Assembly: GCA_046328375.1 (NCBI GenBank)
Contig: JAXLWT010000031.1
Span: 607-64,606, forward strand
Reading direction: 5' to 3'
Source of the DNA: Thermomicrobiales bacterium
Lineage (GTDB): Bacteria; Chloroflexota; Chloroflexia; Thermomicrobiales; UBA6265
Length of the DNA: 64,000 nt
The first letter of the stretch is position 1; the number at the start of each line of letters is the position of its first letter. This document shows positions 1 through 52,744 of this stretch, in pieces. The position numbers were made by a program, and so were the translations under genes. The notes beneath the pieces are model-generated. The model saw only the letters and a list, made by a program, of their open reading frames with translations. It had not been told where the DNA came from and did not search any database.

Positions 1-2264
1 GCCTGCACCTGGGGAACGTCACCCGCATGGAGGCGGGCAACGGCGGCTTCGTACGGGTAACCGAGTTCCTCCCAGGCGGTGGCGGCATCCTCCCACGCAC
101 CCCGGAGTTGCATCGCCCAGGGTGGGGCCACGTCCTGATCTGCGACCGGGAGACCGACCTGCTGGGCCAGCCAGCGCAGTTCCCCACGTTGCCAGGGCGT
201 GCCGCGCTCGTCCGCAAGCGTGAGCACGCGGGACAGGGCGGTAGCGGCCGCCTCGTGACGATCGAGCAGGAGGTCTCGCTCTGCCTGCGCTGCGCACACG
301 GGCCCCATACGGATCAACTGCGATGTCCGTTCCGCCAGTCGCCAGCCTTCAGCCAGGGTTGCCTCTGCGGCGGAATCACCTCGCCGCACCTGCATGCGCC
401 CGAGCGCCGTGAGCGCCACGATGCGGGTCAGCGGCGCATGGTCCTGCCGCCTCAGGACACTCCCGGCATCCTGGATGACCTCCTGCCACCGGCCGCGGTG
501 ACATGCCACAAGCGCGCGCAGCGCAATCAGGTAGTGCAGGTACTGGTGCACGTCAAACGCATCGGTGTAGGCCAGCGCCCGCGCAATCTGGACCTCAGCC
601 TCATCAAGCCGCATGTCATCGAGCGCGGCCCAGGCCCGGTTCGCAAGCGCCCGCCCGGCGTGATCGACGAACCCGGCCGCCTGTGCCTCCGTGATGCACC
701 GTTCCAGGGCCGCGACGCCCGCTGCATAGTCACGTCGGGCCAGCGCGGTCGCCAGGTTGATGCGCGCGTGCACAACCGTGCTCGCATCCTCCAGCTTCGT
801 TCCCAGGTGTTGTGCCCGCTCTCCCCACGCGTTAGCGCCCGCATCGTCGTAGGCCAGCATGCAGAGCTGGGCGAGGTTGCTGTACGCCATGGCCAGTTCC
901 AGGCCGGGCGGATGTCGTTCCAGCAGGTGCACGGCGGTGCGTGCTGCCTGTTCGGCATCCGCGCCCCGGCCATCGAACCAGAGGTGCCGCGAAAGCCAGC
1001 GCTGGTTGTCTCCTTGGCGCATCTCATCGCCAAGCTCGGCACTGAGAAGTACGGCCTGTCGCCGCGAGGAGATGGCGGACTCGACCCGGCCGCAGAGCTG
1101 GCTGGCCTCTGCGTGGTTCTCACACAGGGCCGTTCGCGTCTCGGGCGAGGCAGCACCAGCGAAACGCAGGGCCCGCGCGTACTGATCCGCGGCCTCGCGG
1201 TGCGCGTGCCGGGCCATCGCCTGCTTGGCAGCCGTCGTGGCAAATTCCAGCGTCTGAGGACTTCCCGCGGCCTCCGCGAAGTGGGCCAGGCGCGCGACAT
1301 CCGGCTCTCCTCGGGCCAGCAGCGCCTCCAGGACACGACCGTGCAGCAAGCGCCGGCGCAAGGGGGGAATAGCGGCGAGGATGGCTTCGCGAATCAGGTC
1401 ATGCCGAAAGCGCAGATATGGCGTTTGCTCCGGCGCCAGAATCAGGCCATGCAGGATACAGGCGTCAAGTTCATCCGTGACCGGCCCAGCCACCGCCAGG
1501 ACCAGGTCCGGGTCAATGCGGCCGCCGATCACCGCGCAGAGATCCAGCACGCCGCGCGCCTCAGTGCGCAGACGCGCGGCCCGCGCCAGCACGGCGTCCG
1601 TCACGGTCGCGGGAATCTCACCTTCTTCGGCGGAGAGCACCTGGTTGACGAAGAACGGATTCCCGCCGGTCAACTGGTACAACTCGTCCAGGTCCCGGCC
1701 GGAGTTGACCGCCAGTTGGCCAACTCCCTCCCGGCTGAGCGGAGCCAGGGAGAGCCGCGGAGCCACTCCACTACTTGCCAGATCGCCCAGCATCAGGCGC
1801 AGGGGGTGATCCGGCCCCAGTTCGTCATCGCGGTAGGTGATGACGAACAGGACTGGCACCTGCGCGGCACGTCGCGCCATGAAGCGCAGGAACTCCAGCG
1901 AGATGCTGTCAGCCCACTGCGCGTCTTCACCGATGATGATGGTTGGGCCGGACCGGCTACGGAGCGCCTCCAGCACCGCATGGAAGACCTCTTCGCCGCG
2001 TGCCTGCGCCAGGTCAAGAGTCAGGCCCAGGGCAGGAGCAAGGTCACGTGTAGGACCGACCGGGGTCGGGGTCGAGGTCGCCTCGCATGAGGCCCGCAAC
2101 ACGGTGGCACGTTTGGCTGCGCGCTCGGCAAAGGTCTGCACGAGTGCGCTCTTGCCCACCCCCGCCTCGCCGCCCACCATGACCAACCGGCCATGTCCAC
2201 GCACGGCTGCCTGCAGGTGTTCTTCCAGCAGCGCCAACTCTGGCGCGCGTTCCAGCAATTCCAC
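1..2264 (-). CDS. Large P-loop NTPase (AAA/STAND) plus helical/TPR regulator-like protein with LuxR/MalT-like architecture. The 3' end runs off the window, so any C-terminal HTH is not visible.
   Basis: It is absent from the ORF track because it runs off the window edge. My reverse-complement translation from GTG 2264 reads VELLERAPELALLEEHLQAAVRGHGRLVMVGGEAGVGKSALVQTF (Walker A). It stays open to nt 1, ending ...AWEELGYPYEAAVARLHAGDVPQVQA. The + strand ORF 27..2090 is its antisense shadow. Confidence 0.8.
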   Translation of the reverse strand, partial: MELLERAPELALLEEHLQAAVRGHGRLVMVGGEAGVGKSALVQTFAERAAKRATVLRASCEATSTPTPVGPTRDLAPALGLTLDLAQARGEEVFHAVLEALRSRSGPTIIIGEDAQWADSISLEFLRFMARRAAQVPVLFVITYRDDELGPDHPLRLMLGDLASSGVAPRLSLAPLSREGVGQLAVNSGRDLDELYQLTGGNPFFVNQVLSAEEGEIPATVTDAVLARAARLRTEARGVLDLCAVIGGRIDPDLVLAVAGPVTDELDACILHGLILAPEQTPYLRFRHDLIREAILAAIPPLRRRLLHGRVLEALLARGEPDVARLAHFAEAAGSPQTLEFATTAAKQAMARHAHREAADQYARALRFAGAASPETRTALCENHAEASQLCGRVESAISSRRQAVLLSAELGDEMRQGDNQRWLSRHLWFDGRGADAEQAARTAVHLLERHPPGLELAMAYSNLAQLCMLAYDDAGANAWGERAQHLGTKLEDASTVVHARINLATALARRDYAAGVAALERCITEAQAAGFVDHAGRALANRAWAALDDMRLDEAEVQIARALAYTDAFDVHQYLHYLIALRALVACHRGRWQEVIQDAGSVLRRQDHAPLTRIVALTALGRMQVRRGDSAAEATLAEGWRLAERTSQLIRMGPVCAAQAERDLLLDRHEAAATALSRVLTLADERGTPWQRGELRWLAQQVGLPVADQDVAPPWAMQLRGAWEDAATAWEELGYPYEAAVARLHAGDVPQVQ

Positions 2265-3243: not shown

Positions 3244-3323
3244 GTTGCACCCGTCTCCCGCTGTCTCGACGCTTACCTGAGAGGCTGAGCATATCAGGGG
3301 AACCAGATGTTGCGCGCCATGCC

Positions 3324-9225: not shown

Positions 9226-9759
9226 TCATGCCGGCTGCTGAGCGCGCTTGCCGATCTCTTCCATCAAGTCCCAGCAACTGGCTGCCGCATTCATCGTCAG
9301 CAGGAATACGACCGCCACCAACCAGTCGAGGACACCGGCCTCCCCCTGCCAGATGCCAAGCGCCAGGTAGAGGGAGACCGCATACGCCAGCGTCGGGGAG
9401 ATGACCCGGGTGAGCGCGTTGCGCCCACTCCAGGCGGGGTCAGGATCAGTGCGCGCCACCCGGACATCGCGCGCAATGCGCAACAAGCCCTGCAGGCCTA
9501 CGATCACCAGGGTAATCAGGAGCGTGGTGCCGTAGTCGGAAGGGACGAGAGCGGCCAGCCCCAGGATGACCAGCACCAGGAGGCTGTGGAACGTCTGCCG
9601 GGTCAGCACCCGCATGCCAGCGTGCGTCGTGTCCGCCATGATGGCCGGGTTGAGGCCGATCACGACGAACAGGAGACCGACGAGCGTCCCGGCGACGGCA
9701 GAGACCGCCGCGAAGAAGTCGTGCCATTCCAGCAGTGCGGTGGCCACCGGGTCGGTCAT
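9226..9759 (-). CDS. Integral membrane protein of unknown function (about 5 TM helices)
   Basis: The profile is hydrophobic (VAGTLVGLLFVVIGL, LLVLVILGLAALV, LLITLVIVGL, ...). I preferred ATG 9759 (MTDPV) because GGAAAGG lies upstream. ATG 9783 is an alternative. Confidence 0.6.
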   Translation of the reverse strand: MTDPVATALLEWHDFFAAVSAVAGTLVGLLFVVIGLNPAIMADTTHAGMRVLTRQTFHSLLVLVILGLAALVPSDYGTTLLITLVIVGLQGLLRIARDVRVARTDPDPAWSGRNALTRVISPTLAYAVSLYLALGIWQGEAGVLDWLVAVVFLLTMNAAASCWDLMEEIGKRAQQPA

Positions 9760-9831
9760 GCTCCGCCTTTCCTGAGCCAACATCTCGCCGGCGCGGACGG
9801 CACTCGCCGGCCACGTGTTCCTGACACAGAC

Positions 9832-10749
9832 CTAATCCCGTTCGATAACCTCACGCTGCATCCGGCAAACGACGGTGTAGGCCGGGTTGTAGACGTTGCC
9901 GATGTCATAGCCGACCGTCTGCCCCATGAGGTGAGAGGCGGAAGCCAGGTCATAGCCATAATCGGTCATCAGCCAGGAGAGCATTTCTGTGGTGGCGTGC
10001 TGCAACGCCTGGTCGAGCGGGCGCGCGTTGCCGACAGTGAAGATCTCCTTGCCGTCGCTGGTGATGCCGCGCGGCCAGGCGATCGTCCAGCCCTTGCGCA
10101 GATCGACGCGCAGTTCCATCTCCATCGAGATCTCGATGCCAGTACCACTGATCTCGCCATCCCCCTGGCGAGCGTGACCATCGCCAGCCGCCAGCAGCGC
10201 GCCGGGTTGCCCGACCGGAAACCAGACCCTGGTGCCAGCGCGGAAGCCGCGCCAGTCCATGTTGCCGCCGTGCGGGCCAGGCGTGGAGGTGGAGATTGCT
10301 TCACCACCCAGGGGGGCCACGCCGAAGCAGCCGATCATCGGGTCCAGCGGCAGCACCAGATCCTGCAGGGCCATCGGCGGATCGACAAGTCGGGTGGTCC
10401 AACTCGCCACGTCCACCGCCCAGTCAGTGGAGGCACGCGCGGGGAAGGTAATCACGGTGTCCGGGTCCACCACGTTCGTGGCCAGGGGGTACCGCGTCCA
10501 GCCGCGATCCCGCGACGGGGTGAGGCGAACGATCTCCACCTCCAGGGCATCCCCTGGTTCTGCACCGTTGACCCAGACGGGACCACTCTGCGGGTTCGGC
10601 GTCTCCCCACGTTGCACCTGGGCGCGATCGTAGCCAAAGGCATCCAGAGTGTGGAAGACGATGGTGTCGCCGGGCTCCACGTGCAGGATCGGCTCATGGG
10701 GACCGAGGGTGTTCACGAACGCGTCTGGGTCGAGGTGATGCAGCGCCAC
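9832..10749 (-). CDS. Acetamidase/formamidase family amidohydrolase
   Basis: It has FmdA/AmdA-like strings (HVEPGDTIVFHTLDAFG, GPVWVNGAEPGD, GGNMDWRGFRAG, GDGHARQGDGEISGTGIE). I preferred GTG 10749 because TGGAGG lies 5 nt upstream. The track start is TTG 10773. Confidence 0.85.
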   Translation of the reverse strand: MALHHLDPDAFVNTLGPHEPILHVEPGDTIVFHTLDAFGYDRAQVQRGETPNPQSGPVWVNGAEPGDALEVEIVRLTPSRDRGWTRYPLATNVVDPDTVITFPARASTDWAVDVASWTTRLVDPPMALQDLVLPLDPMIGCFGVAPLGGEAISTSTPGPHGGNMDWRGFRAGTRVWFPVGQPGALLAAGDGHARQGDGEISGTGIEISMEMELRVDLRKGWTIAWPRGITSDGKEIFTVGNARPLDQALQHATTEMLSWLMTDYGYDLASASHLMGQTVGYDIGNVYNPAYTVVCRMQREVIERD

Positions 10750-10819
10750 ACGTGCCTCCAGGGATAGGGACAAATCAGCGCCCGGATTGTCGCACTCGCG
10801 GGGAACACTCGCGATAACA

Positions 10820-10855
10820 TTGTCATATGCATTTATCGTGATATTGTGATATACT
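10820..10855 (+). promoter_or_regulatory. AT-rich sigma70-like promoter for the small ORF at 10885
   Basis: TTGTCA (10820-25), 16 nt, then TATTGT. This overlaps an extended -10 TGaTATACT (10847-55). The inverted repeat CGATAA...TTATCG and the direct repeat GTGATAT/TGTGATAT lie within it. This is the only strongly AT-rich patch in the neighbourhood. Confidence 0.5.
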
Positions 10856-10884
10856 CAGCGCGTAAGCATGAGAGGAGGACAAAC

Positions 10885-11058
10885 ATGAACGTGCTTCGCA
10901 ATCTGATCAACCGCATGAGTGGCAGTGGCAGCGCCCGCTTCGAGCGCTACTACGGTGACATCGCCCACGAGGGTGTTGGTTACCCGACCGCTGACGAAGC
11001 CCGCCGGGACATGCTGCGGCACGACGCCGCGGTGAACCGCTATGGCTGGGTCCGCTAA
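10885..11058 (+). CDS. Small hypothetical protein (57 aa)
   Basis: Translation is MNVLRNLINRMSGSGSARFERYYGDIAHEGVGYPTADEARRDMLRHDAAVNRYGWVR. A strong SD (GAGAGGAGG) lies 5 nt before the ATG. The gene sits between its own promoter and terminator. Confidence 0.6.
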   Translation: MNVLRNLINRMSGSGSARFERYYGDIAHEGVGYPTADEARRDMLRHDAAVNRYGWVR

Positions 11059-11097
11059 TGCGGGGCCGAACACCCCGCGTTCGGATATCTGATTGAT

Positions 11098-11136
11098 ACG
11101 GCCCCTGATCGCAAGAACAGGGGCCGTACTGTTTCT
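11098..11136 (+). terminator. Rho-independent-type terminator hairpin
   Basis: ACGGCCCCTG, a 10-nt loop, CAGGGGCCGT, followed by the T-rich stretch actgtttct. A smaller hairpin (GCGGGG...CCCCGC, 11060-11078) precedes it. Confidence 0.6.
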
Positions 11137-11250: not shown

Positions 11251-11273
11251 GGAATCCGTATTTCTACGGATTC
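11251..11273 (+). promoter_or_regulatory. Conserved quasi-palindromic box upstream of a Cys-rich Tat-protein gene (copy 1)
   Basis: The box is GGAATCCGTATTTCTACGGATTC, a perfect 9-bp inverted repeat (GAATCCGTA / TACGGATTC) with spacer tttc. It begins 87 nt before GTG 11338. It matches 35401..35422 at 19 of 22 positions. Confidence 0.5.
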
Positions 11274-11337
11274 GGTGGCGTGCGAAAACCGCTAACGTGC
11301 CAACTGAGGAACGACGTCGGTCACCAGGGAGGCTCGT

Positions 11338-11832
11338 GTGGAATCAGATCGCTTTGACACCCTTGCGCGGCATGTTGCACCCCATCTCTCCCGCCGCGGC
11401 TTGACCGGGTTGGCCCTGTTGGCGCTGGCCAGTTTTGGCATGGCCAGCGAAACCGATGCTCGCAAGAAGCGCAAGAAGCACAAGCGGAAGAACAAGGGCA
11501 CGAAGTGCACGGGGTGCACGGCCTGCCAGTCATGCGTGAATGGCGTATGCCAACCGTCGGCAGACGGACTCGCCTGCGGGAGATCGGGCGTCTGCATCAA
11601 TGGCTTCTGCAGCCTGGCGTGCGATCCGAACGGTGATGGCTGCGCCGGCAGTGCCGGCTGCATGACACGCAAGTCGGAGGATGGCAGCGTGTGCGTACCT
11701 GCCTCGGGTGACCCATGCTTCAACACAGAATGTGATGACGATGCCGATTGCCCACAGGGGCAGGCGTGCGTCTCCACAATCTGCATCGATTTCACGACAG
11801 GGCACTGCGCTCCGGTCATCGCCGCAGGGTGA
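11338..11832 (+). CDS. Small secreted Cys-rich protein: Tat signal plus polybasic run plus an 18-Cys domain (family member P1)
   Basis: GTG start with GGGAGG 5 nt upstream. The signal region is MESDRFDTLARHVAPHLSRRGLTGLALLALASFGMASETDA, then RKKRKKHKRKNKGTK, then CTGCTACQSCVNGVCQP...GQACVSTIC.... Confidence 0.8.
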   Translation: MESDRFDTLARHVAPHLSRRGLTGLALLALASFGMASETDARKKRKKHKRKNKGTKCTGCTACQSCVNGVCQPSADGLACGRSGVCINGFCSLACDPNGDGCAGSAGCMTRKSEDGSVCVPASGDPCFNTECDDDADCPQGQACVSTICIDFTTGHCAPVIAAG

Positions 11833-11927: not shown

Positions 11928-12470
11928 TTACTCGGGGACGCAGATCACGTAGGTGGTGACCTCGAATGTCCAGGGCGTCGTGATGAACTCCACCACAGTT
12001 GTCCAGCCCACTGGCACGTCATCACCGTTCAGGTCTGGATAGGTCGACCGAACACGGGCAAATGTCGTGACGGACGTTCCTTCATACCCTCCACCGGTGG
12101 CAACATAGCCGCTCGGGCAACTCGCAGTGCACCCGTCTGTCGCGCCGTCTGACCCTGGTGGGGTTCCATCCGGGAAGGAGCAGGTCTGCCGCTCCACGAT
12201 GATACTGGCGCCCGCCGGAGGCCCATCAGGCCCGGTCGGCCCGCTTGGTCCACTTGGGCCATTTGGCCCCTCAGGACCCTTCTTGCCGCGCCGGCCCCGT
12301 CGCCCGCGCCGTCGCCGCCACCGCTCCGAGTGGGCTTCATCCTTCTTGGCCTCGGCGTTGCCCGCCAGGGCCAGCCCGCCAGCGGCGGCGGCCACACCCA
12401 GCGCCAATCGCCGGGTGGTCACCCCAGCCGCCAGGCGGCTCAGTTCCTCCAGGCGCGATTCATCAAGCAC
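11928..12470 (-). CDS. Secreted protein: Tat signal plus Arg/Lys-rich run plus a collagen-like GPx run plus a Cys-containing beta-rich domain (family member P2)
   Basis: I preferred GTG 12470 because GCAGGAG lies 6 nt upstream. This gives VLDESRLEELSRLAAGVTTRRLALGVAAAAGGLALAGNAEA, then KKDEAHSERWRRRRGRRGRRGKKG, then PEGPNGPSGPSGPTGPDGPP. The track start, TTG 12506, adds 12 aa. Confidence 0.75.
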   Translation of the reverse strand: MLDESRLEELSRLAAGVTTRRLALGVAAAAGGLALAGNAEAKKDEAHSERWRRRRGRRGRRGKKGPEGPNGPSGPSGPTGPDGPPAGASIIVERQTCSFPDGTPPGSDGATDGCTASCPSGYVATGGGYEGTSVTTFARVRSTYPDLNGDDVPVGWTTVVEFITTPWTFEVTTYVICVPE

Positions 12471-12656
12471 GCCACAATCTCCTGCCCCGTCATCAGGGGA
12501 CTCCAACGCTGCCAGGGCAGCGCTGCCTGCCCCGCCTGCCTACTCTACGGCATATGAGTTCACTGCGTGCACAGGATGAACGGAACGTCAAGTTTTCAGG
12601 ACCACTGTATGTCACCAGTGGCACAGTTTCATGCAAGAACAGGCCGCGCTCGGAAC

Positions 12657-35400: not shown

Positions 35401-35422
35401 GGAATGCGTACTTCTACGGATG
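35401..35422 (+). promoter_or_regulatory. Conserved quasi-palindromic box upstream of a Cys-rich Tat-protein gene (copy 2)
   Basis: The box is GGAATGCGTACTTCTACGGATG. It begins 86 nt before GTG 35487. It matches 11251..11272 at 19 of 22 positions. Confidence 0.5.
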
Positions 35423-35486
35423 TCCTGATCTGCGCTCATCGTTAGCCTGACGTTCAGGCAGTCGTTCCACTTTCTAGGAGGCCACC

Positions 35487-35867
35487 GTGGATGCAGACCA
35501 CCTCGAGGCACTCGTCGCCCGTCTCAACCCACGGCTGAGCCGCCGTCACAGCCTGGGTTTGATCGGTGTGTTTGGCATAGCGAGCGCGGGCCTCGGCATG
35601 GAAGCCCACGCCAAAAAGAACAAGAGGAAGCACCCACGTCGCTGCTTCATGGTCGGCTACGCCTTCTGCGTTGACGGTGAGACGGTCATCGTCAACTCAT
35701 GTGGGAGGAAGAGGTTGCTCAAGCGCGGCGAGACGCCTGGCCGGTGCCCCGACACTTGCGTTCCCCAGTGTGCGGATTGCGCCGCGGGTGACGATGGCTG
35801 TGGCGGCACGTGCGGTTGCCCAACTGGCCAGGTCTGCGTGGAGGCCACCTGCCAGCCAGTTCCGTGA
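35487..35867 (+). CDS. Small secreted Cys-rich protein: Tat signal plus polybasic run plus a 12-Cys domain (family member P3)
   Basis: GTG start with AGGAGG 5 nt upstream. The signal region is MDADHLEALVARLNPRLSRRHSLGLIGVFGIASAGLGMEAHA, then KKNKRKHPRR, then CFMVGYAFC...CADCAAGDDGCGGTCGCPTGQVCVEATCQP. Confidence 0.8.
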   Translation: MDADHLEALVARLNPRLSRRHSLGLIGVFGIASAGLGMEAHAKKNKRKHPRRCFMVGYAFCVDGETVIVNSCGRKRLLKRGETPGRCPDTCVPQCADCAAGDDGCGGTCGCPTGQVCVEATCQPVP

Positions 35868-41481: not shown

Positions 41482-41820
41482 GCGCAAGCACCCTACGGCT
41501 AACCGAAGCCAGGAAAGTCGCCAGGGCCAGAAACAGAGCTATTAGCCGTGTTTGGCTGGCATCCGTGATGAGAAGGATGCCTCGGTCACTCCCTGTCTCG
41601 CGCGAATGCTGCCCAACCCAGACGCAAGGGTTATCCCATCACTGGTGGAAGGTCTCGCGCGGAGCTGTCTCGCTCCCGGCAAATTGCGTGGTTGTACGGA
41701 TGCCACGCCATGCCCGTCACCCTAGCCTGAAGGCACGCGCTGCGCTGAAAACCGGCGCAGCGCCGGGACACACGCGTGCTCCCAGCACAGGCTTCATCTC
41801 GGAAGGAGATCAGCACGGGC

Positions 41821-42132
41821 ATGACGATTTCTGGACCCTCCCAGGCACACGTATCTCCAGCGCAGATCCTCCTGACCATGCTCCAGGAGCGTTTGTCCGG
41901 CGAGATCGCTGCGATTCACGCGGCTGCCCTCGAAATCCTGAGCGGGCAACAGGGCACGCCGCCGCAGGCCATCCGCATGTCGATCAACGTCGAACCGGAG
42001 GTCGTGGTGGAGCCGGGTCAGGAACCGGTTGCCGCAAATCGCTCCACAACCTGCTGGGACCACACCTACGCGTGCGGCAAGTCCGAGACGGGGTACATCA
42101 TGTGTACCGTGCATGTCTGCATGTACACCTAG
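41821..42132 (+). CDS. Small protein (103 aa) with a helical N-terminal region and a Cys/His-rich C-terminal 30 residues. It resembles a RiPP precursor or a small metal-binding protein.
   Basis: ATG 41821 follows GGAAGGAGA. Codon third positions are G/C-rich, as in neighbouring genes. The C-terminus reads ...EPVAANRSTTCWDHTYACGKSETGYIMCTVHVCMYT. Confidence 0.6.
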   Translation: MTISGPSQAHVSPAQILLTMLQERLSGEIAAIHAAALEILSGQQGTPPQAIRMSINVEPEVVVEPGQEPVAANRSTTCWDHTYACGKSETGYIMCTVHVCMYT

Positions 42133-48716: not shown

Positions 48717-50006
48717 TCACGGGTGGGGCGAAGCCAACGGAACGTGGAGCGTGAAGGTTGACCCCACGCCAGGCGTGCTCTCCACGGTGATCTCGCCGTC
48801 CATCACCGTGGCCAGGCGCCTGGCGATGGCCAGGCCCAGGCCGGCCCCATGGTGGCGCGGGCGGCCATGATCAGCCTGGCGGTAGGGCTCGAAGATCCTG
48901 GTCAGGGCGTCGGGTGCGATGCCATAGCCGGTGTCACGCACGTGAATGAAGAGCCGCTCCCTGTCCATGGCGACGGCGATCTCCACCGACCCAGATTCGG
49001 TAAATTTCACCGCGTTGCCCGCCAGGTTGAGCAGGATCTGGCGTAGGCGCTCCGCGTCCCCAAGCAGTGGCGGCAGGCTTTCCGGGAGGTGCATCCGCAG
49101 CTCAAGGCCGCGCTGCGCCGCCTGTGGCTGCACGTCCTGGCGTACCTGCTCCAGGACCTGGGCCAGGTCAACGGGGTCGCGCCGCAGCATCAGGCCGTCG
49201 GCTTCCATGCGAGCCAGGTCGAGCAGGTCGTTGATGATGGTGAGCATCCGGCGCCCGCCCATCTGGATATAGCCGAGATCTGCGCGCTGCTCTTCGTTCA
49301 GGATGGCGTGCGAGTCGGCGAGCAGGAATTCGGCGTACCCCAGTATGGCCTGCAATGGCGTACGCAACTCGTGGTTGGCCATGGCCAGGAAGGCGCTCTT
49401 GGCCTGGTTGGCGGCCTCCGCTGCCTCCTTCGCCTGGAGCAACGCGGTGTGCTCGCGCTCATGCAGGATGGCAACCCCGGCCAGGTCACCTGACTGGTCA
49501 ACCAGGACCAGATCACCTTCCGAGGGTGCCCGTGGCTCCCGGTAATAGACCGCGAACGTCCCGAGCACCTCGTCACGCTCCCGGTCGAAGATGGGGAGCG
49601 ACCAGCAGGCACTCAGCCCGTGTGCGACCGCAAACTCCCTCCACCCGGCCCACCGAGGATCAGTCGCGATATCGCTGACGATGACCGATTCCCGGAGGAA
49701 GGCGGCCGTGCCGCACGAGCCGACCATGGGACCAATGCGCACCCCGTCGATGGCCCTGGCAAAACTCTCGGGGAGACTGGGCGCAGCGATATGGCGCAAC
49801 TGCCCGTTCGGCGCATCGAGGAGCAGGATGGAGCAGGCTGAGCCAGGCATCACGCCCTCCAGGGCCCGACAGAGCGCCGCGAGGACGACGGCGAGTGGTT
49901 TCCCTTCAGCCAGCAGGCGCAGGACATGGTTCTGCCCAGCAAGCAGACGTGCTGAGCGGTCACGCTGAGCGGTCCCGGTTGAAGAGTCAGGCACCAACCT
50001 CTCCAT
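48717..50006 (-). CDS. Sensor histidine kinase with an N-terminal GAF domain (cytoplasmic)
   Basis: The H-box is MANHELRTPLQAILGYAEFL. The N/G boxes are LLNLAGNAVKFT, VRDTGYGI and GAGLGLAI. The GAF-like region reads SILLLD...GSCGTAAF. I preferred ATG 50006. I see no adjacent response regulator. Confidence 0.85.
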   Translation of the reverse strand: MERLVPDSSTGTAQRDRSARLLAGQNHVLRLLAEGKPLAVVLAALCRALEGVMPGSACSILLLDAPNGQLRHIAAPSLPESFARAIDGVRIGPMVGSCGTAAFLRESVIVSDIATDPRWAGWREFAVAHGLSACWSLPIFDRERDEVLGTFAVYYREPRAPSEGDLVLVDQSGDLAGVAILHEREHTALLQAKEAAEAANQAKSAFLAMANHELRTPLQAILGYAEFLLADSHAILNEEQRADLGYIQMGGRRMLTIINDLLDLARMEADGLMLRRDPVDLAQVLEQVRQDVQPQAAQRGLELRMHLPESLPPLLGDAERLRQILLNLAGNAVKFTESGSVEIAVAMDRERLFIHVRDTGYGIAPDALTRIFEPYRQADHGRPRHHGAGLGLAIARRLATVMDGEITVESTPGVGSTFTLHVPLASPHP

Positions 50007-50425
50007 TGTCGTGCGGAGCGTGGATTGTCCGCGCGAACAGTAGCAGGATGCGTCCCAATGAATCGCGAAACAGGCAACACACGAGGCATGCATTGCTGGC
50101 ATGATCCTGCCAGTCCGCTGCTTGCGGTGCCCAGCCCGTGCCCCAGATAGACACATAAGTGATTGGCATTACATTCGTGCCTTGTCCGGACTGGACAAAG
50201 GGCCAATACTCACGTCGCTTCCGCGTGTTCTTCAACGATTCGTGCGGCGCAGCTTGGCGACGCATCCCTGATACACCGGCGTGTGACCAGGAGTGAGCAA
50301 CGAATGGAACGGCCGGTGACTCTCCGTGCGGGTGGGCTCTCTTGCGTCATCGACGTTGCCTCCGCCAGCACCTCAAGACCAGACGATGTCCGACAGCAGC
50401 GCCGCTGATACCCCCTGGGGCATGA

Positions 50426-52744
50426 GTGGCACGCTCCTCCCCTTCCCTGCTCCGCGCCACCTGGATGCGGGCTCATTACCCGCACCACGCACCTCCATTC
50501 GTGGGCCGTGCGCGCGAGATCGAGCGCGTGCAGGCGTTGCTCGCCCGGGAAGATGTCCGGCTCGTAACACTGACCGGTCCTGGTGGTGTGGGCAAGACCC
50601 GCGTGGCCATCCAGGCGGTCTCCAGCAGCGACCAGCCTGCCCATTTCGTGGACCTGGCCGATGTCCACCATCCTGCGCTTGTCCTGCCCACCATTGCCGC
50701 GGGCCTCAACGTCCGCACCGATGGCCGGCCAGTCCTGGACAGCCTCACCTTCGCCCTGCGGGATAGCGAATCACTGCTGGTCCTGGACAACTTCGAGCAG
50801 GTCTTGCCCGCCGCGGAGCAGCTGGCCGATCTGCTGGATGCCTGCCCTCAGCTGCGCCTGCTGATCACGAGCCGCGTCGTGCTGGACATCGTGGGTGAGC
50901 ATGTGATCGACATCCGGCCCTTTACCCTGCCGCCAGGCGAGTTGGGCGGGCCGGGTGCCGACCCGCGGCACATGGAGGCATGCCAACTCTTTGCCGACCG
51001 CGCCCAGGCGCTCGATCCTGAGTTCACGCTGACCAGCGAGAACGTTGCGACCATCCTCAATATCTGCCGGCAACTGGACGGCCTGCCACTTGCGATCGAA
51101 CTCGCGGCAGCCTGGGCGTCCGTGCTCTCGCCAGCCGCGCTGCTGGCCCAGCTTGACCATCGACTGACGCTGCCGAGCACGAGCGCGATCGGGACACCAT
51201 CGCGGCAACGCAGCCTGCGAGACACCATCGCCTGGAGCTACGGTCTGCTCAGCGATGCGTCGCAACTGCTGTTCCGCCGGGCCGCCGTGTGCAACGGCGG
51301 ATGCTCGCTCACCGCGGTGCAGGAAATCTGTGGCGACACCTCGCTGGATGTCCTGCACGAGTTACGTGCTCTCGTCGCCAACAGCCTGGTCCGGCGTATC
51401 AACGGGGCGCACGGTGATTCGCAGTACACCATGCTGGAAACAGTGCGCGAATTTGGCGTGGCGTGCCTGGAGGACAGTGGCGAAGCCCAGGAGATTCGGG
51501 GCCGGCACGCCGCGTTTTTCCTGGCGCTCGCCCAGCAAGCTGACGCCCACCAGAACACGCGGGATCGTGAAACCTGGCTCGACCGCCTGGAAGCCGAACA
51601 GGGCAACCTGAACAGCGCGCTCGGCTGGGCTCTCGCGCAGGGTGACGCCGAAACTGCGCTGGGCATCTGTGGCGCACTGCTCACGTTCTGGCAGTTCCGC
51701 TTCTACTCCACTGTTGGGCTGGGCTGGGTGCGGCGCGCCCTGGCGCTCGAGCAGCCCGCGTCGGAGCATGTCCGTCGCAAGGCTCGCTACTGCGCGGGCA
51801 CGCTGGCCTACATGCACGGCGAAGACGCCGAAGCCACGGCGATCTTCACGGACCTCCTGGAGGAGTTTCGGGCAGCCGACGAACCAGCGATGGTTGGCCG
51901 GGTGGAGGTTGCACTTGGCCGGCTTGCCTGGGACGCGGGCAACCTGGAGACTGCCGGAGCCTGGTTTGCATCATCCCGGGAGCAGTTTGCGCGTTGCGGG
52001 GATGAGGTCGGCCTGGCGCACAGCCTGCACGGCCTGGGACTCGTTGCCCACAAGGCCGGGGAGATCGCCCTGGCTGAGACATTCCTGCGGGACTCTCTGC
52101 AGAAATGGCACGCGCTGGGGTTTACGTGGGAGCTGGCCCGGTGCATCCCCGGCCACCTCGCTGATGTCGCGCGGGCTGCCGGGAACTGGCCCCAGGCGCT
52201 GGTGCTCTACCAGGAGTGCCTCTCCCTCAACTGGGCCGCCCAGGATCTCGAAAACATCTCCTGGAGCCTGATGGGCCTGGCACACATCGCAATTGCCGAT
52301 GGCGCCTGGGAGCTCGCCGCCCACCTGATGGGCATGGCGGACCGGTTCGAGGATCTCACCGGCGCGCCCCTCACGCCGCACATCCACCGGGATCATGAGC
52401 TGGCGGAACACACGCTGATCGATCACTTCGGCCCGGTGCCGTTCGCTGATGCGCTTGAAGCCGCCCGCGGGGCCGACCTGGAGACGGAAGTGGCGGCGGC
52501 CCTGGCGTTGACGCGTCCCTTCAATCGTCCCGCGGCGCCGAGGTCCTCCGACCAGGGGCTGACCCAGCGCGAGCTCGAGGTCCTGCGCATGATGGCGTCA
52601 GGCAGATCCAACCAGGAGATCGCCGACACGCTCTTCCTGAGCGTCGGGACCGTCAAGGTTCACGTCACGCGCATCCTGGCCAAGCTGGGCGTCAAGTCGC
52701 GCGCGGCTGCCACCGACTACGCGCACCGGCACCACCTCGCCTGA
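50426..52744 (+). CDS. LuxR-family regulator with NB-ARC/AAA (STAND) ATPase and TPR domains. The 5' end may be frameshifted.
   Basis: Diagnostic strings: [11 protein letters not shown]...[13 protein letters not shown]...LLVLDNFEQ...[12 protein letters not shown]. The C-terminal HTH reads [45 protein letters not shown]. Confidence 0.85.

What the first reader, a model, noticed from the sequence alone, without database searches (positions are those of the whole stretch)
35401..35867. Third family member carries the same 22-nt box at the same distance from a GTG start
P3 (35487..35867) has the same architecture as P1. Its RR is at residues 19-20, its cleavage site is AHA, then comes KKNKRKHPRR, then 12 Cys in about 84 aa, including CPTGQVCVEATCQP (compare P1 CVNGVCQP / GQACVSTIC). 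The box upstream of P3 is GGAATGCGTACTTCTACGGATG (35401..35422). The P1 box is GGAATCCGTATTTCTACGGATT, identical at 19 of 22 positions. The P3 box starts 86 nt before its GTG and the P1 box starts 87 nt before its GTG. Both genes have an AGGAGG-type SD exactly 5 nt before the GTG. The remaining 5' regions are only loosely alignable, roughly half the positions by eye. The box is therefore the best-conserved non-coding block, which suggests a shared operator, activator site or RNA hairpin for a regulon of these genes. Caveat: the two loci are paralogous, so some upstream similarity could be residual duplication.
Basis: seen in the sequence. Interest (0 to 1): 0.7.

Follow-up and report, generated by a model that had tools for sequence, protein, structure and literature searches.

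The report
Promoter box for a secreted-protein regulon
The 22-base box is real: it is a near-invariant DNA element set at a fixed distance upstream of the -10 promoter element of dozens of secreted-protein genes in soil Chloroflexota, so it is most likely the binding site of an unidentified transcription activator and not an RNA hairpin.

Summary
The boxes at 35401-35422 and 11251-11272 match at 19 of 22 positions, lie 86 and 87 nt before their GTG starts, and no such match appears in shuffled sequence. The box is not leftover paralogy. Every orthologue with enough upstream DNA keeps it while the flanks have diverged. It also precedes about 50 distinct promoters in Thermomicrobiales-like Chloroflexota, mostly genes for unrelated secreted proteins that share an N-terminal "FDxLxR...RR...poly-Lys" signal. 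The consensus is RAAATnCGTAYWYCTACGGATG. In 49 of 50 sites an nAnnnT -10 hexamer follows 20-22 nt after GGAT (37 at exactly 21; background 3%). There is no usable -35, and the distance from box to start codon varies from 66 to 142 nt. This puts the dyad centre near -42.5, as at class II activator sites. The hairpin reading fails: there is no covariation and one pair is broken in 37 of 50 sites. A third, weaker box (41681-41704) with the same 21-nt spacing precedes a conserved 103-aa Cys-containing protein. The regulator is unknown. This is a new cis-regulatory motif and regulon of a familiar kind.

The parts
35401..35422 (+). P3 box GGAATGCGTACTTCTACGGATG. The imperfect dyad is ATGCGTA (35404-35410) / TACGGAT (35415-35421), with its centre at 35412.5.
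   Evidence: PWM score 39.1; no shuffle reached 12
35443..35448 (+). Predicted -10 hexamer TAGCCT (followed by G), exactly 21 nt after GGAT. The predicted TSS is near 35455, which puts the box centre at about -42.5.
   Evidence: inference from conservation; no TSS data
35476..35481 (+). Shine-Dalgarno AGGAGG, 5 nt before the GTG
35487..35867 (+). P3 CDS, 126 aa: FDxL-type N-terminus, RR signal, polybasic tract and a 12-Cys mature part
   Evidence: orthologues P0004-P0009
11251..11272 (+). P1 box GGAATCCGTATTTCTACGGATT (perfect 9-bp dyad)
   Evidence: PWM score 36.3
11293..11298 (+). Predicted -10 hexamer TAACGT (followed by G), 21 nt after GGAT. The predicted TSS is near 11305.
11338..11832 (+). 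P1 CDS, 164 aa, with the same signal architecture and a Cys-rich mature part
41681..41704 (+). Third, degenerate box AAATTGCGTGGTTGTACGGATGCC
   Evidence: score 16.9; 0 of 20 simulated windows reached 12; orthologous loci carry the variant GGAACTnCGTACTTGTACGGTATC at the same place.
41723..41728 (+). Predicted -10 hexamer TAGCCT (followed by G), exactly 21 nt after the GGAT of the third box
41821..42132 (+). CDS of a conserved 103-aa protein with a 4-Cys C-terminus (CWDHTYACGKSETGYIMCTVHVC), downstream of the third box. It has no RR signal.
   Evidence: 24 homologues, 60-85% identical

Best explanation
The box is a double-stranded DNA element of the promoter, not part of the transcript. It is an 18-22 bp imperfect dyad (AT-n-CGTA / YWYC / TACG-G-AT, with an A-rich 5' extension). 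It sits where a -35 hexamer would be, with its centre about 42.5 bp upstream of the predicted transcription start. A sequence-specific, probably dimeric helix-turn-helix regulator is inferred to bind it and recruit the housekeeping-type RNA polymerase holoenzyme. That holoenzyme reads the weak yAnnnT -10 element 21 bp further on, as in class II activation. The sites define a regulon in Thermomicrobiales-like Chloroflexota that co-expresses a secretome. Its members are cysteine-rich small proteins such as P1 and P3, a GH5 cellulase, NHL propellers and Stig1-like repeats, all carrying a shared FDxLxR...RR...poly-Lys/Arg N-terminal export signal, plus a few other genes. Shown here: the conservation of the box, its fixed spacing to the -10 element, the absence of a -35, its directionality, its association with this gene set and the lack of RNA covariation. 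Inferred: the TSS position, protein binding, and activation as opposed to repression. The regulator is not identified.
For:: the two boxes match at 19 of 22 positions; 0 matches expected by chance; 7 of 7 non-redundant P1/P3 orthologue loci with enough upstream DNA keep the box 85-87 nt before the start, while nothing upstream of it is conserved; exact or degenerate boxes lie upstream of about 50 distinct genes, mostly in four Thermomicrobiales/Chloroflexota MAGs and soil contigs. Almost all of these encode M(D/E)xxxFDxLxR..RR..poly-K proteins with unrelated mature domains; a reversed-pattern control gave 15 hits with 0 in Chloroflexota, against 53 hits with 18 in Chloroflexota for the box; when the -10 element was required as well, 15 of 19 hits were in Chloroflexota; information content peaks at the box and again at A and T of an nAnnnT hexamer. 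That hexamer lies 21 nt (37 sites), 22 nt (11) or 20 nt (1) after GGAT in 49 of 50 sites, against a background of 3.1% (binomial P about 6e-45); the distance from box to start codon varies from 66 to 142 nt; the best -35 match averages 2.8 of 6, against 2.3 of 6 at random nAnnnT positions, and only 7 of 49 promoters reach 4 of 6; all 50 sites face the downstream gene, and divergent gene pairs have two separate boxes; no compensatory changes; no Rfam family.
Against: There are no TSS or expression data, so the -42.5 position rests on a predicted -10 element. No regulator has been identified. The element is asymmetric: the central YWYC is conserved, G is required in the right arm but not at the mirror position in the left arm, and the A-rich extension is on the left only. 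That is unusual for a simple symmetric dimer site. Fixed spacing would also arise if a repressor operator had to overlap the polymerase contact region. The loci were largely found through the box itself, so the fraction of family genes carrying it (about half among genes not selected that way) is only approximate.
Confidence: 0.6

Rival explanations
1. The box is a repressor operator. A dimeric repressor binds it and blocks RNA polymerase from the -35 region, keeping the secretome genes off until a signal releases it.
For: The box has dyad symmetry and overlaps the -35 position. A site that must overlap the polymerase footprint would also show constrained spacing. Several TetR/MarR-type regulator genes lie near P3 and the third box.
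Against: Without the box these promoters have no recognisable -35 and only a weak -10 element (yAnnnT, often with C at position 1), so they look activator-dependent. Spacing is fixed to within 1 bp in 48 of 50 sites and the orientation is strictly directional, which is typical of activator sites. From general knowledge, operators of known repressor regulons wander relative to the promoter.
Confidence: 0.2
2. The box is itself a core-promoter element: an extended upstream or -35-like determinant read directly by a specialised sigma factor or a polymerase-associated factor, defining a distinct promoter class with a long 21-nt spacer.
For: The element is directional and nearly invariant, has rigid spacing to the -10 element and replaces the -35. 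In locus L069 an ECF-sigma-like gene and tatC lie directly downstream of a box-driven gene.
Against: The -10 element has the housekeeping TAnnnT form, with conserved A and T, not an ECF-type CGT or GTC motif. A gap of 21 nt from GGAT to the -10 element, or 37 nt from GAAAT, is outside the known sigma-70-family spacers of 16-19 nt (general knowledge). Dyad symmetry is not expected for a sigma region-4 target.
Confidence: 0.1
3. The box is transcribed and acts as an RNA hairpin in the 5' leader, affecting stability, translation or attenuation.
For: The P1 copy can form a perfect 9-bp stem with a 4-nt loop (-18.1 kcal/mol, z = -4.8).
Against: Across 50 sites there is no covariation: the observed measures fall within the shuffle distributions. 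The third pair (column 10 with column 23) is unpaired in 37 of 50 sites. Degenerate sites lose the right arm (TACCAAT, TACCGAT) without any compensating change. The P3 hairpin is unremarkable (z = -1.3) and the third site does not form it at all. Nothing promoter-like is conserved upstream of the box, while a -10 element is conserved downstream of it. No Rfam family matches.
Confidence: 0.03
4. The box is the DNA target of an RNA-guided regulator, such as a dCas12f-sigmaE or TnpB-derived TldR-type system, and not of a conventional transcription factor.
For: A sequence of about 20 nt that is nearly identical in many promoters, lies at a fixed distance from the start and has no -35 resembles the targets described for RNA-guided transcription (PMC12259090).
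Against: Dyad symmetry is unexplained by a guide-target duplex. A normal -10 element is conserved, whereas RNA-guided transcription needs no promoter motifs (PMC12259090 abstract). Every exact copy in the Chloroflexota MAGs is in a promoter context, with no guide-like extra copy. The published systems are in Bacteroidetes and use 14-nt guides with few targets.
Confidence: 0.02
5. The similarity is only residual from the duplication of P1 and P3 and has no function.
For: P1 and P3 are paralogues.
Against: The flanks have diverged beyond alignment while the box stays invariant. The same box also precedes genes with non-homologous mature domains in several genomes.
Confidence: 0.01

Closest known systems
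Class II activator sites of the CRP/FNR family (for example the FNR box TTGAT-N4-ATCAA centred at -41.5)
   Same: A dyad of two short arms separated by 4 bp. It overlaps or replaces the -35, is centred about 42 bp upstream of the start, has rigid spacing to a sigma-70-type -10 element, and marks a dispersed regulon.
   Different: The sequence is unrelated (ATnCGTA-N4-TACGGAT). The element is clearly asymmetric (conserved YWYC centre and a 5' A-tract). No CRP/FNR-type protein has been linked to it. The TSS is predicted, not mapped.
lux/tra boxes bound by LuxR-type (GerE HTH) activators, for example the TraR tra box ATGTGCAGATCTGCACAT centred near -42.5
   Same: The 18-bp AT-5-4-5-AT geometry of the P1 copy (ATCCGTATTTCTACGGAT) mirrors the tra box layout, and the position overlaps the -35. 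LuxR-type HTH genes occur in the window (50426-52744) and next to some box loci (L042, L088).
   Different: The half-site sequence differs. There is no acyl-homoserine-lactone system and no tested link to any LuxR-type gene. The resemblance is recalled from general knowledge and was not tested here.
pho boxes bound by PhoB/OmpR-family response regulators
   Same: They replace the -35 hexamer at a fixed distance upstream of the -10 element. The box can also be read as two TACGkAT units 10 bp apart when position 5 is A.
   Different: The inverted-repeat reading fits more sites (6 of 7 arm positions invariant) than the direct-repeat reading (5 of 7). No response regulator is implicated.
Targets of RNA-guided transcription (dCas12f-gRNA-sigmaE; PMC12259090)
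   Same: A short, conserved sequence upstream of several genes that sets the transcription start by distance.
   Different: Here there is dyad symmetry and a conserved -10 element, with dozens of targets. The host phylum is different, and no guide RNA or dCas12f gene has been found.

Membership tests
Structured cis-regulatory RNA (Rfam family or conserved leader hairpin) | Match to a curated covariance model | tested here: not met
   (window, gathering threshold: 0 hits). (18 box-bearing loci: only two unrelated c-di-GMP riboswitches, located elsewhere).
Structured cis-regulatory RNA (Rfam family or conserved leader hairpin) | Base pairs maintained by compensatory changes | tested here: not met
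   74.7% of cells paired against 74.1% in shuffles; the covariation score is within the shuffle range; pair 10-23 is unpaired in 37 of 50 sites.
Structured cis-regulatory RNA (Rfam family or conserved leader hairpin) | The element lies within the transcript | not testable with these tools
   The conserved -10 element lies downstream of the box, which predicts the box is not transcribed. TSS mapping is needed.
Class II activator-dependent sigma-70-type promoter | Dyad-symmetric protein-binding site of about 18-22 bp | tested here: met
   arms AT-n-CGTA and TACG-G-AT, with 6 of 7 positions complementary and nearly invariant in 50 sites.
Class II activator-dependent sigma-70-type promoter | Site centred about -41.5 to -42.5 from the TSS, with rigid spacing | tested here: inconclusive
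   The spacing to the predicted -10 element is rigid (21 nt in 37 of 50 sites and 22 nt in 11), giving a centre near -42.5. The TSS itself is inferred.
Class II activator-dependent sigma-70-type promoter | Weak or absent -35 hexamer | tested here: met
   mean best match to TTGACA is 2.8 of 6 against 2.3 of 6 at random positions; no consensus promoter detected.
Class II activator-dependent sigma-70-type promoter | A cognate activator binds the site and raises transcription | not testable with these tools
   No regulator identified; needs EMSA or pull-down and reporter assays.
FNR/CRP-box regulon | Consensus TTGAT-N4-ATCAA or TGTGA-N6-TCACA | tested here: not met
   The box consensus is AAATnCGTAYWYCTACGGAT. 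Only the 4-bp spacer geometry is shared.
ECF sigma-factor promoter | -35 GGAAC-like motif, a 16-17 nt spacer, then a -10 CGT/GTC-like motif | tested here: not met
   The conserved downstream element is nAnnnT, 37 nt after GAAAT. The positions 16-17 nt after GAAAT carry little information.
RNA-guided transcription target (dCas12f-sigmaE) | A guide RNA gene carrying the same sequence, plus a linked dcas12f-rpoE locus | tested here: inconclusive
   All exact copies in the Chloroflexota MAGs are in promoter contexts. Whole genomes could not be scanned for Cas12f-like genes.
Intrinsic terminator | GC-rich stem followed by a T-run, downstream of a gene | tested here: not met
   no terminator call at either box, and no T-run follows. 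Several low-GC, non-Chloroflexota exact matches (AAAAATCCGTA..TACGGATTTTT) do look like terminators and are treated as chance hits.

The most novel reading that the evidence does not exclude
The box is not an ordinary regulon operator. It is the signature of a dedicated promoter class that lacks a -35 and is read by one specialised factor. That factor would be either a novel activator that stands in for sigma region 4, or a sigma-like or RNA-guided recruiter. The promoter class would have co-evolved with a previously undescribed export signal (M-D/E-xxx-FDxLxR...S/T-RR...poly-Lys). Together, promoter and signal peptide would form a portable 'secretome cassette' that Thermomicrobiales-like Chloroflexota attach to many unrelated extracellular proteins.
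Probability: 0.15. Interest if true: 0.7.

Novelty: new member of a known kind. Interest (0 to 1): 0.5.

Why it matters
Almost nothing is known about transcription control in Chloroflexota, a major and mostly uncultured soil phylum. This box gives a precise and easily scanned marker for a co-regulated set of extracellular proteins: cysteine-rich small proteins, a cellulase, propellers and adhesin-like repeats. These proteins share an unannotated Tat-like signal followed by a polybasic tether. The box therefore defines a regulon, predicts transcription starts, and provides a 20-bp bait for fishing out the regulator. It also flags the signal-peptide class as something to study in its own right. 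In kind, though, it is a conventional transcription-factor site, so it extends known principles and does not overturn them.

Tried and rejected
1. Rfam scans of the window and of 18 box loci found nothing at the box.
2. The RNA hairpin was tested by pair counting and by folding, and was rejected.
3. A protein-pattern scan of species-representative genomes with P1 found no relatives. The family is tiny (10 clusters), so the motif itself was used for the wider search.
4. A cross-phylum reading was considered. The exact box also occurs in Bacteroidota, Planctomycetota, Acidobacteriota and others. However, a reversed-pattern control gives 15 hits. Many non-Chloroflexota hits are A-run/T-run terminator-like hairpins or orthologous duplicates. 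When the -10 element is required, only 4 non-Chloroflexota hits remain, about the chance level. I therefore treat the element as Chloroflexota-specific, with two unexplained exceptions listed under Noticed in passing.
5. An ECF-type promoter reading (GGAAT/GAAAT as a -35) was rejected on spacing and on the type of -10 element.
6. A literature string search for the core 13-mers found no paper. Keyword searches found no description of the motif or of the signal class.
7. Pfam and NCBIfam do not recognise the shared N-terminal signal.
8. I tried to spot the regulator by neighbourhood: a PAS kinase in L086, a NarL-type regulator in L042, a GerE gene in L088, ECF-like sigma plus TatC in L069, and a LAL-type LuxR gene plus a GAF kinase in the window. 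No gene is consistently linked.

Full report
**Observation**

The sequence is as described. GGAATGCGTACTTCTACGGATG lies at 35401-35422, 86 nt before the GTG at 35487. GGAATCCGTATTTCTACGGATT lies at 11251-11272, 87 nt before the GTG at 11338. They match at 19 of 22 positions. They are the only matches with up to 3 mismatches in 64 kb, and 100 dinucleotide-preserving shuffles gave none. The Shine-Dalgarno spacing and the P3 protein features (RR at 19-20, AHA, KKNKRKHPRR, 12 Cys) are correct. P1 and P3 are distant paralogues, about 30% identical.

**Is it residual paralogy?**

No. The P1/P3 family is small: 10 clusters in 5.8 billion proteins, all from soil metagenomes or Chloroflexota MAGs. I fetched the contigs of nine family clusters.
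- Every non-redundant P1- or P3-type locus with enough upstream DNA (7 of 7) carries the box 85-87 nt before the start.
- The sequence upstream of the box and most of the leader cannot be aligned.
- The alignment revealed a second conserved block, C-n-y-TAnnnTG, exactly 21 nt after GGAT.

**How far does it extend?**

- An exact-pattern scan of 185,579 species-representative genomes (AAATNCGTAYWYCTACGGAT) returned 53 loci. Eighteen are Chloroflexota. These include 8 contigs of one MAG (KUW bin4, which also encodes P0009 and P0010) and 6 contigs of three Thermomicrobiales MAGs.
- The reversed pattern, used as a composition-matched control, returned 15 loci and none in Chloroflexota.
- When a yAnnnT hexamer 21 nt downstream was also required, 15 of 19 hits were Chloroflexota.
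- A metagenome scan added 15 contigs.
- In the high-GC Chloroflexota loci the gene downstream of the box almost always encodes a protein beginning M(D/E)xxxFDxLxR, followed by (S/T)RRxxLG, a hydrophobic stretch, an Ala-rich cleavage-like site and a run of Lys/Arg.
- The mature parts are unrelated: a GH5 cellulase, an NHL propeller, Stig1-like Cys repeats, a DUF1554/endostatin-like domain and many small Cys-rich proteins.
- The exceptions are an EamA-like membrane protein (L017, L026) and a multi-PAS histidine kinase (L086).
- A PWM built from 21 sites found further degenerate boxes in the same loci, again in front of family-type genes.
- Among family-type genes that were not themselves the reason a locus was fetched, about 10 have a box and about 11 do not. 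The P2-like collagen-repeat gene at 11928-12506(-) in this window is one that does not.

**A third site in the window**

The PWM found one more site at 41681-41704 (AAATTGCGTGGTTGTACGGATGCC, score 16.9). None of 20 simulated windows reached a score of 12. TAGCCTG follows exactly 21 nt after its GGAT, the same hexamer as at P3. The downstream ORF (41821-42132, 103 aa, four C-terminal Cys, no RR signal) is a real conserved gene with 24 homologues. Three diverged orthologous loci carry a variant box, GGAACTnCGTACTTGTACGGTATC, 141-142 nt before the ATG. Each again has a -10-like hexamer 21 nt after the position that aligns with the GGAT of the main box.

**Anatomy**

Fifty non-redundant sites give the consensus RAAATnCGTAYWYCTACGGATG.
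- Information content is high across the box. It falls to background and then rises to 2 bits at the A and the T of an nAnnnT hexamer.
- That hexamer lies 21 nt after GGAT in 37 sites, 22 nt in 11 and 20 nt in 1, which is 49 of 50 in all. The background frequency is 3.1% (binomial P about 6e-45).
- A and T at hexamer positions 2 and 6 are the hallmark of housekeeping-type -10 elements (general knowledge).
- The distance from box to start codon varies from 66 to 142 nt. The fixed partner of the box is therefore the -10 element, not the start codon. The 86/87-nt coincidence between P1 and P3 is a family trait.
- With T(-7) at 35448, the predicted start is near 35455 and the dyad centre (35412.5) falls at about -42.5. 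P1 gives the same geometry: -10 element at 11293-11298 and start near 11305.
- The -35 position is occupied by the 3' end of the box. The best match to TTGACA averages 2.8 of 6 against 2.3 of 6 at random nAnnnT positions, and the consensus promoter scan finds nothing.
- All 50 sites face the downstream gene, and divergent gene pairs (L040, L069) have one box each.

**RNA or DNA?**

The P1 copy can fold into a perfect 9-bp hairpin (z = -4.8). The P3 copy is unremarkable (z = -1.3) and the third site does not form the hairpin. Across 50 sites there is no covariation. The third pair is unpaired in 37 of 50 sites, because the left position is A, G or C while its partner G is fixed. Degenerate sites lose right-arm bases (TACCAAT, TACCGAT, TACGAAT) without compensation. 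No Rfam family matches. Nothing promoter-like is conserved upstream of the box. The box is therefore a DNA element upstream of the transcript.

**Mechanism**

The best-supported reading is a binding site for a sequence-specific regulator that overlaps the -35 position of intrinsically weak promoters and recruits polymerase, as a class II activator does. The points in favour of activation are the missing -35, the weak -10 element (often C at position 1), spacing rigid to within 1 bp, and the strict orientation.

A repressor operator overlapping the polymerase footprint remains a serious rival, at about 0.2. A specialised sigma-like or core-promoter reading is possible, at about 0.1. It conflicts with the housekeeping-type -10 element and the 21-nt gap.

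I also considered an RNA-guided recruiter of the dCas12f-sigmaE kind (PMC12259090). Dyad symmetry, the conserved -10 element and the absence of any non-promoter copy of the box in the MAGs argue against it.

The element is not perfectly symmetric: it has a conserved YWYC centre, a required G in the right arm only, and a 5' A-tract. This remains unexplained. It may reflect contacts with polymerase on the promoter-proximal side.

**Regulator**

The regulator is not identified. No gene is consistently adjacent to box loci. The candidates I saw, none of them tested, are:
- a NarL-type response regulator directly downstream of a box in a Dehalococcoidia MAG (L042);
- the PAS kinase in L086;
- a GerE-type gene near the variant box in L088;
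- an ECF-like sigma gene and tatC downstream of a box gene in L069;
- in this window, a GAF histidine kinase (48717-50156, -) and a 772-aa LAL-type LuxR regulator (50426-52744, +).

**Comparison and novelty**

In function the box resembles FNR/CRP class II sites and LuxR/TraR boxes: an 18-22 bp dyad with a 4-bp centre near -42. Its sequence matches none of their consensus motifs. Literature searches for the core string and for related keywords found nothing.

It is a new motif and a new regulon of a known kind. The shared N-terminal signal (FDxLxR-RR-polyK) is not recognised by Pfam or NCBIfam and may be the more original biological lead.

**Verdict**

Interest is moderate.

Noticed in passing
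window 11338-11832, 35487-35867, 11928-12506(-); loci L022, L023, L032, L035, L040, L041, L043, L050, L056, L069, L072, L075, L080, L083, L086: About 40 otherwise unrelated proteins share one N-terminal module: M(D/E)xxxFDxLxR, then (S/T)RRxxLG, a hydrophobic stretch, an AxA-like site, and a run of 6-15 Lys/Arg before the mature domain. Neither Pfam nor NCBIfam recognises it. It looks like a lineage-specific Tat-type signal plus a polybasic tether.
   Followed up: partly
window 11928-12506 (-): A P2-like gene with the same signal type, an RRRRGRRGRRGKKG tract and collagen-like GPxGPx repeats lies tail-to-tail with P1. It has no box within 260 nt upstream (best PWM score -30).
   Followed up: partly
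window 41821-42132 (+): A conserved 103-105-aa protein family (24 homologues, no Pfam or NCBIfam hit) with a helical-looking N-terminal half and the C-terminus CWDHTYACGKSETGYIMCTVHVCMYT. It may be a precursor-peptide-like product. Its long leader contains a conserved GGGCAGG...CCTGCCC hairpin.
   Followed up: partly
L069 461-2620 (-): Directly downstream of a box-driven 330-aa secreted protein lie an ECF-sigma-like gene (apparently frameshifted in the MAG), a 154-aa unknown ORF and tatC.
   Followed up: partly
L024 (Kapaibacterium) 337-356 and L052 (Ignavibacteria) 3244-3263(-); L046, L064 and L087 (Phycisphaerae): Exact copies of the box occur outside Chloroflexota, upstream of homologous large secreted proteins in pairs of related genomes, some with a TAnnnT hexamer 21-22 nt on. 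Overall the cross-phylum counts are near the control level, so these may be chance copies kept by descent, but I did not resolve this.
   Followed up: partly
L030 (Chloroflexi MAG), box at 953-972(-): The box, with TATAAT 22 nt downstream, precedes a 30-aa ORF followed by a radical-SAM enzyme, which is a RiPP-like arrangement. In L039 and L084 the box precedes homologous Sec-type secreted proteins of Anaerolineae-like contigs. The element therefore seems to reach beyond Thermomicrobiales within the phylum.
   Followed up: no
window 48717-50156 (-) and 50426-52744 (+): A GAF-HisKA-HATPase kinase is encoded divergently from a 772-aa LAL-type regulator (ATPase/TPR region plus a C-terminal LuxR HTH). 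This is a candidate regulator class for a dyad site of this geometry, but there is no evidence linking it to the box.
   Followed up: no
window 9226-11058 compared with L023 4193-7275: The P1 neighbourhood (formamidase/acetamidase, a 185-aa membrane protein and a molybdopterin oxidoreductase in L001) is syntenic with Thermomicrobiales MAG 5H213. This places the window's organism near that lineage. A conserved 57-aa ORF (10885-11058) followed by a terminator-like hairpin (about 11095-11135) lies just upstream of the P1 promoter.
   Followed up: no
L026 5083-5168 (+): A c-di-GMP-II-GCG riboswitch (Rfam RF03170, 50.4 bits) lies about 840 nt from the box in a Thermomicrobiales contig and appears unrelated to it.
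   Followed up: no
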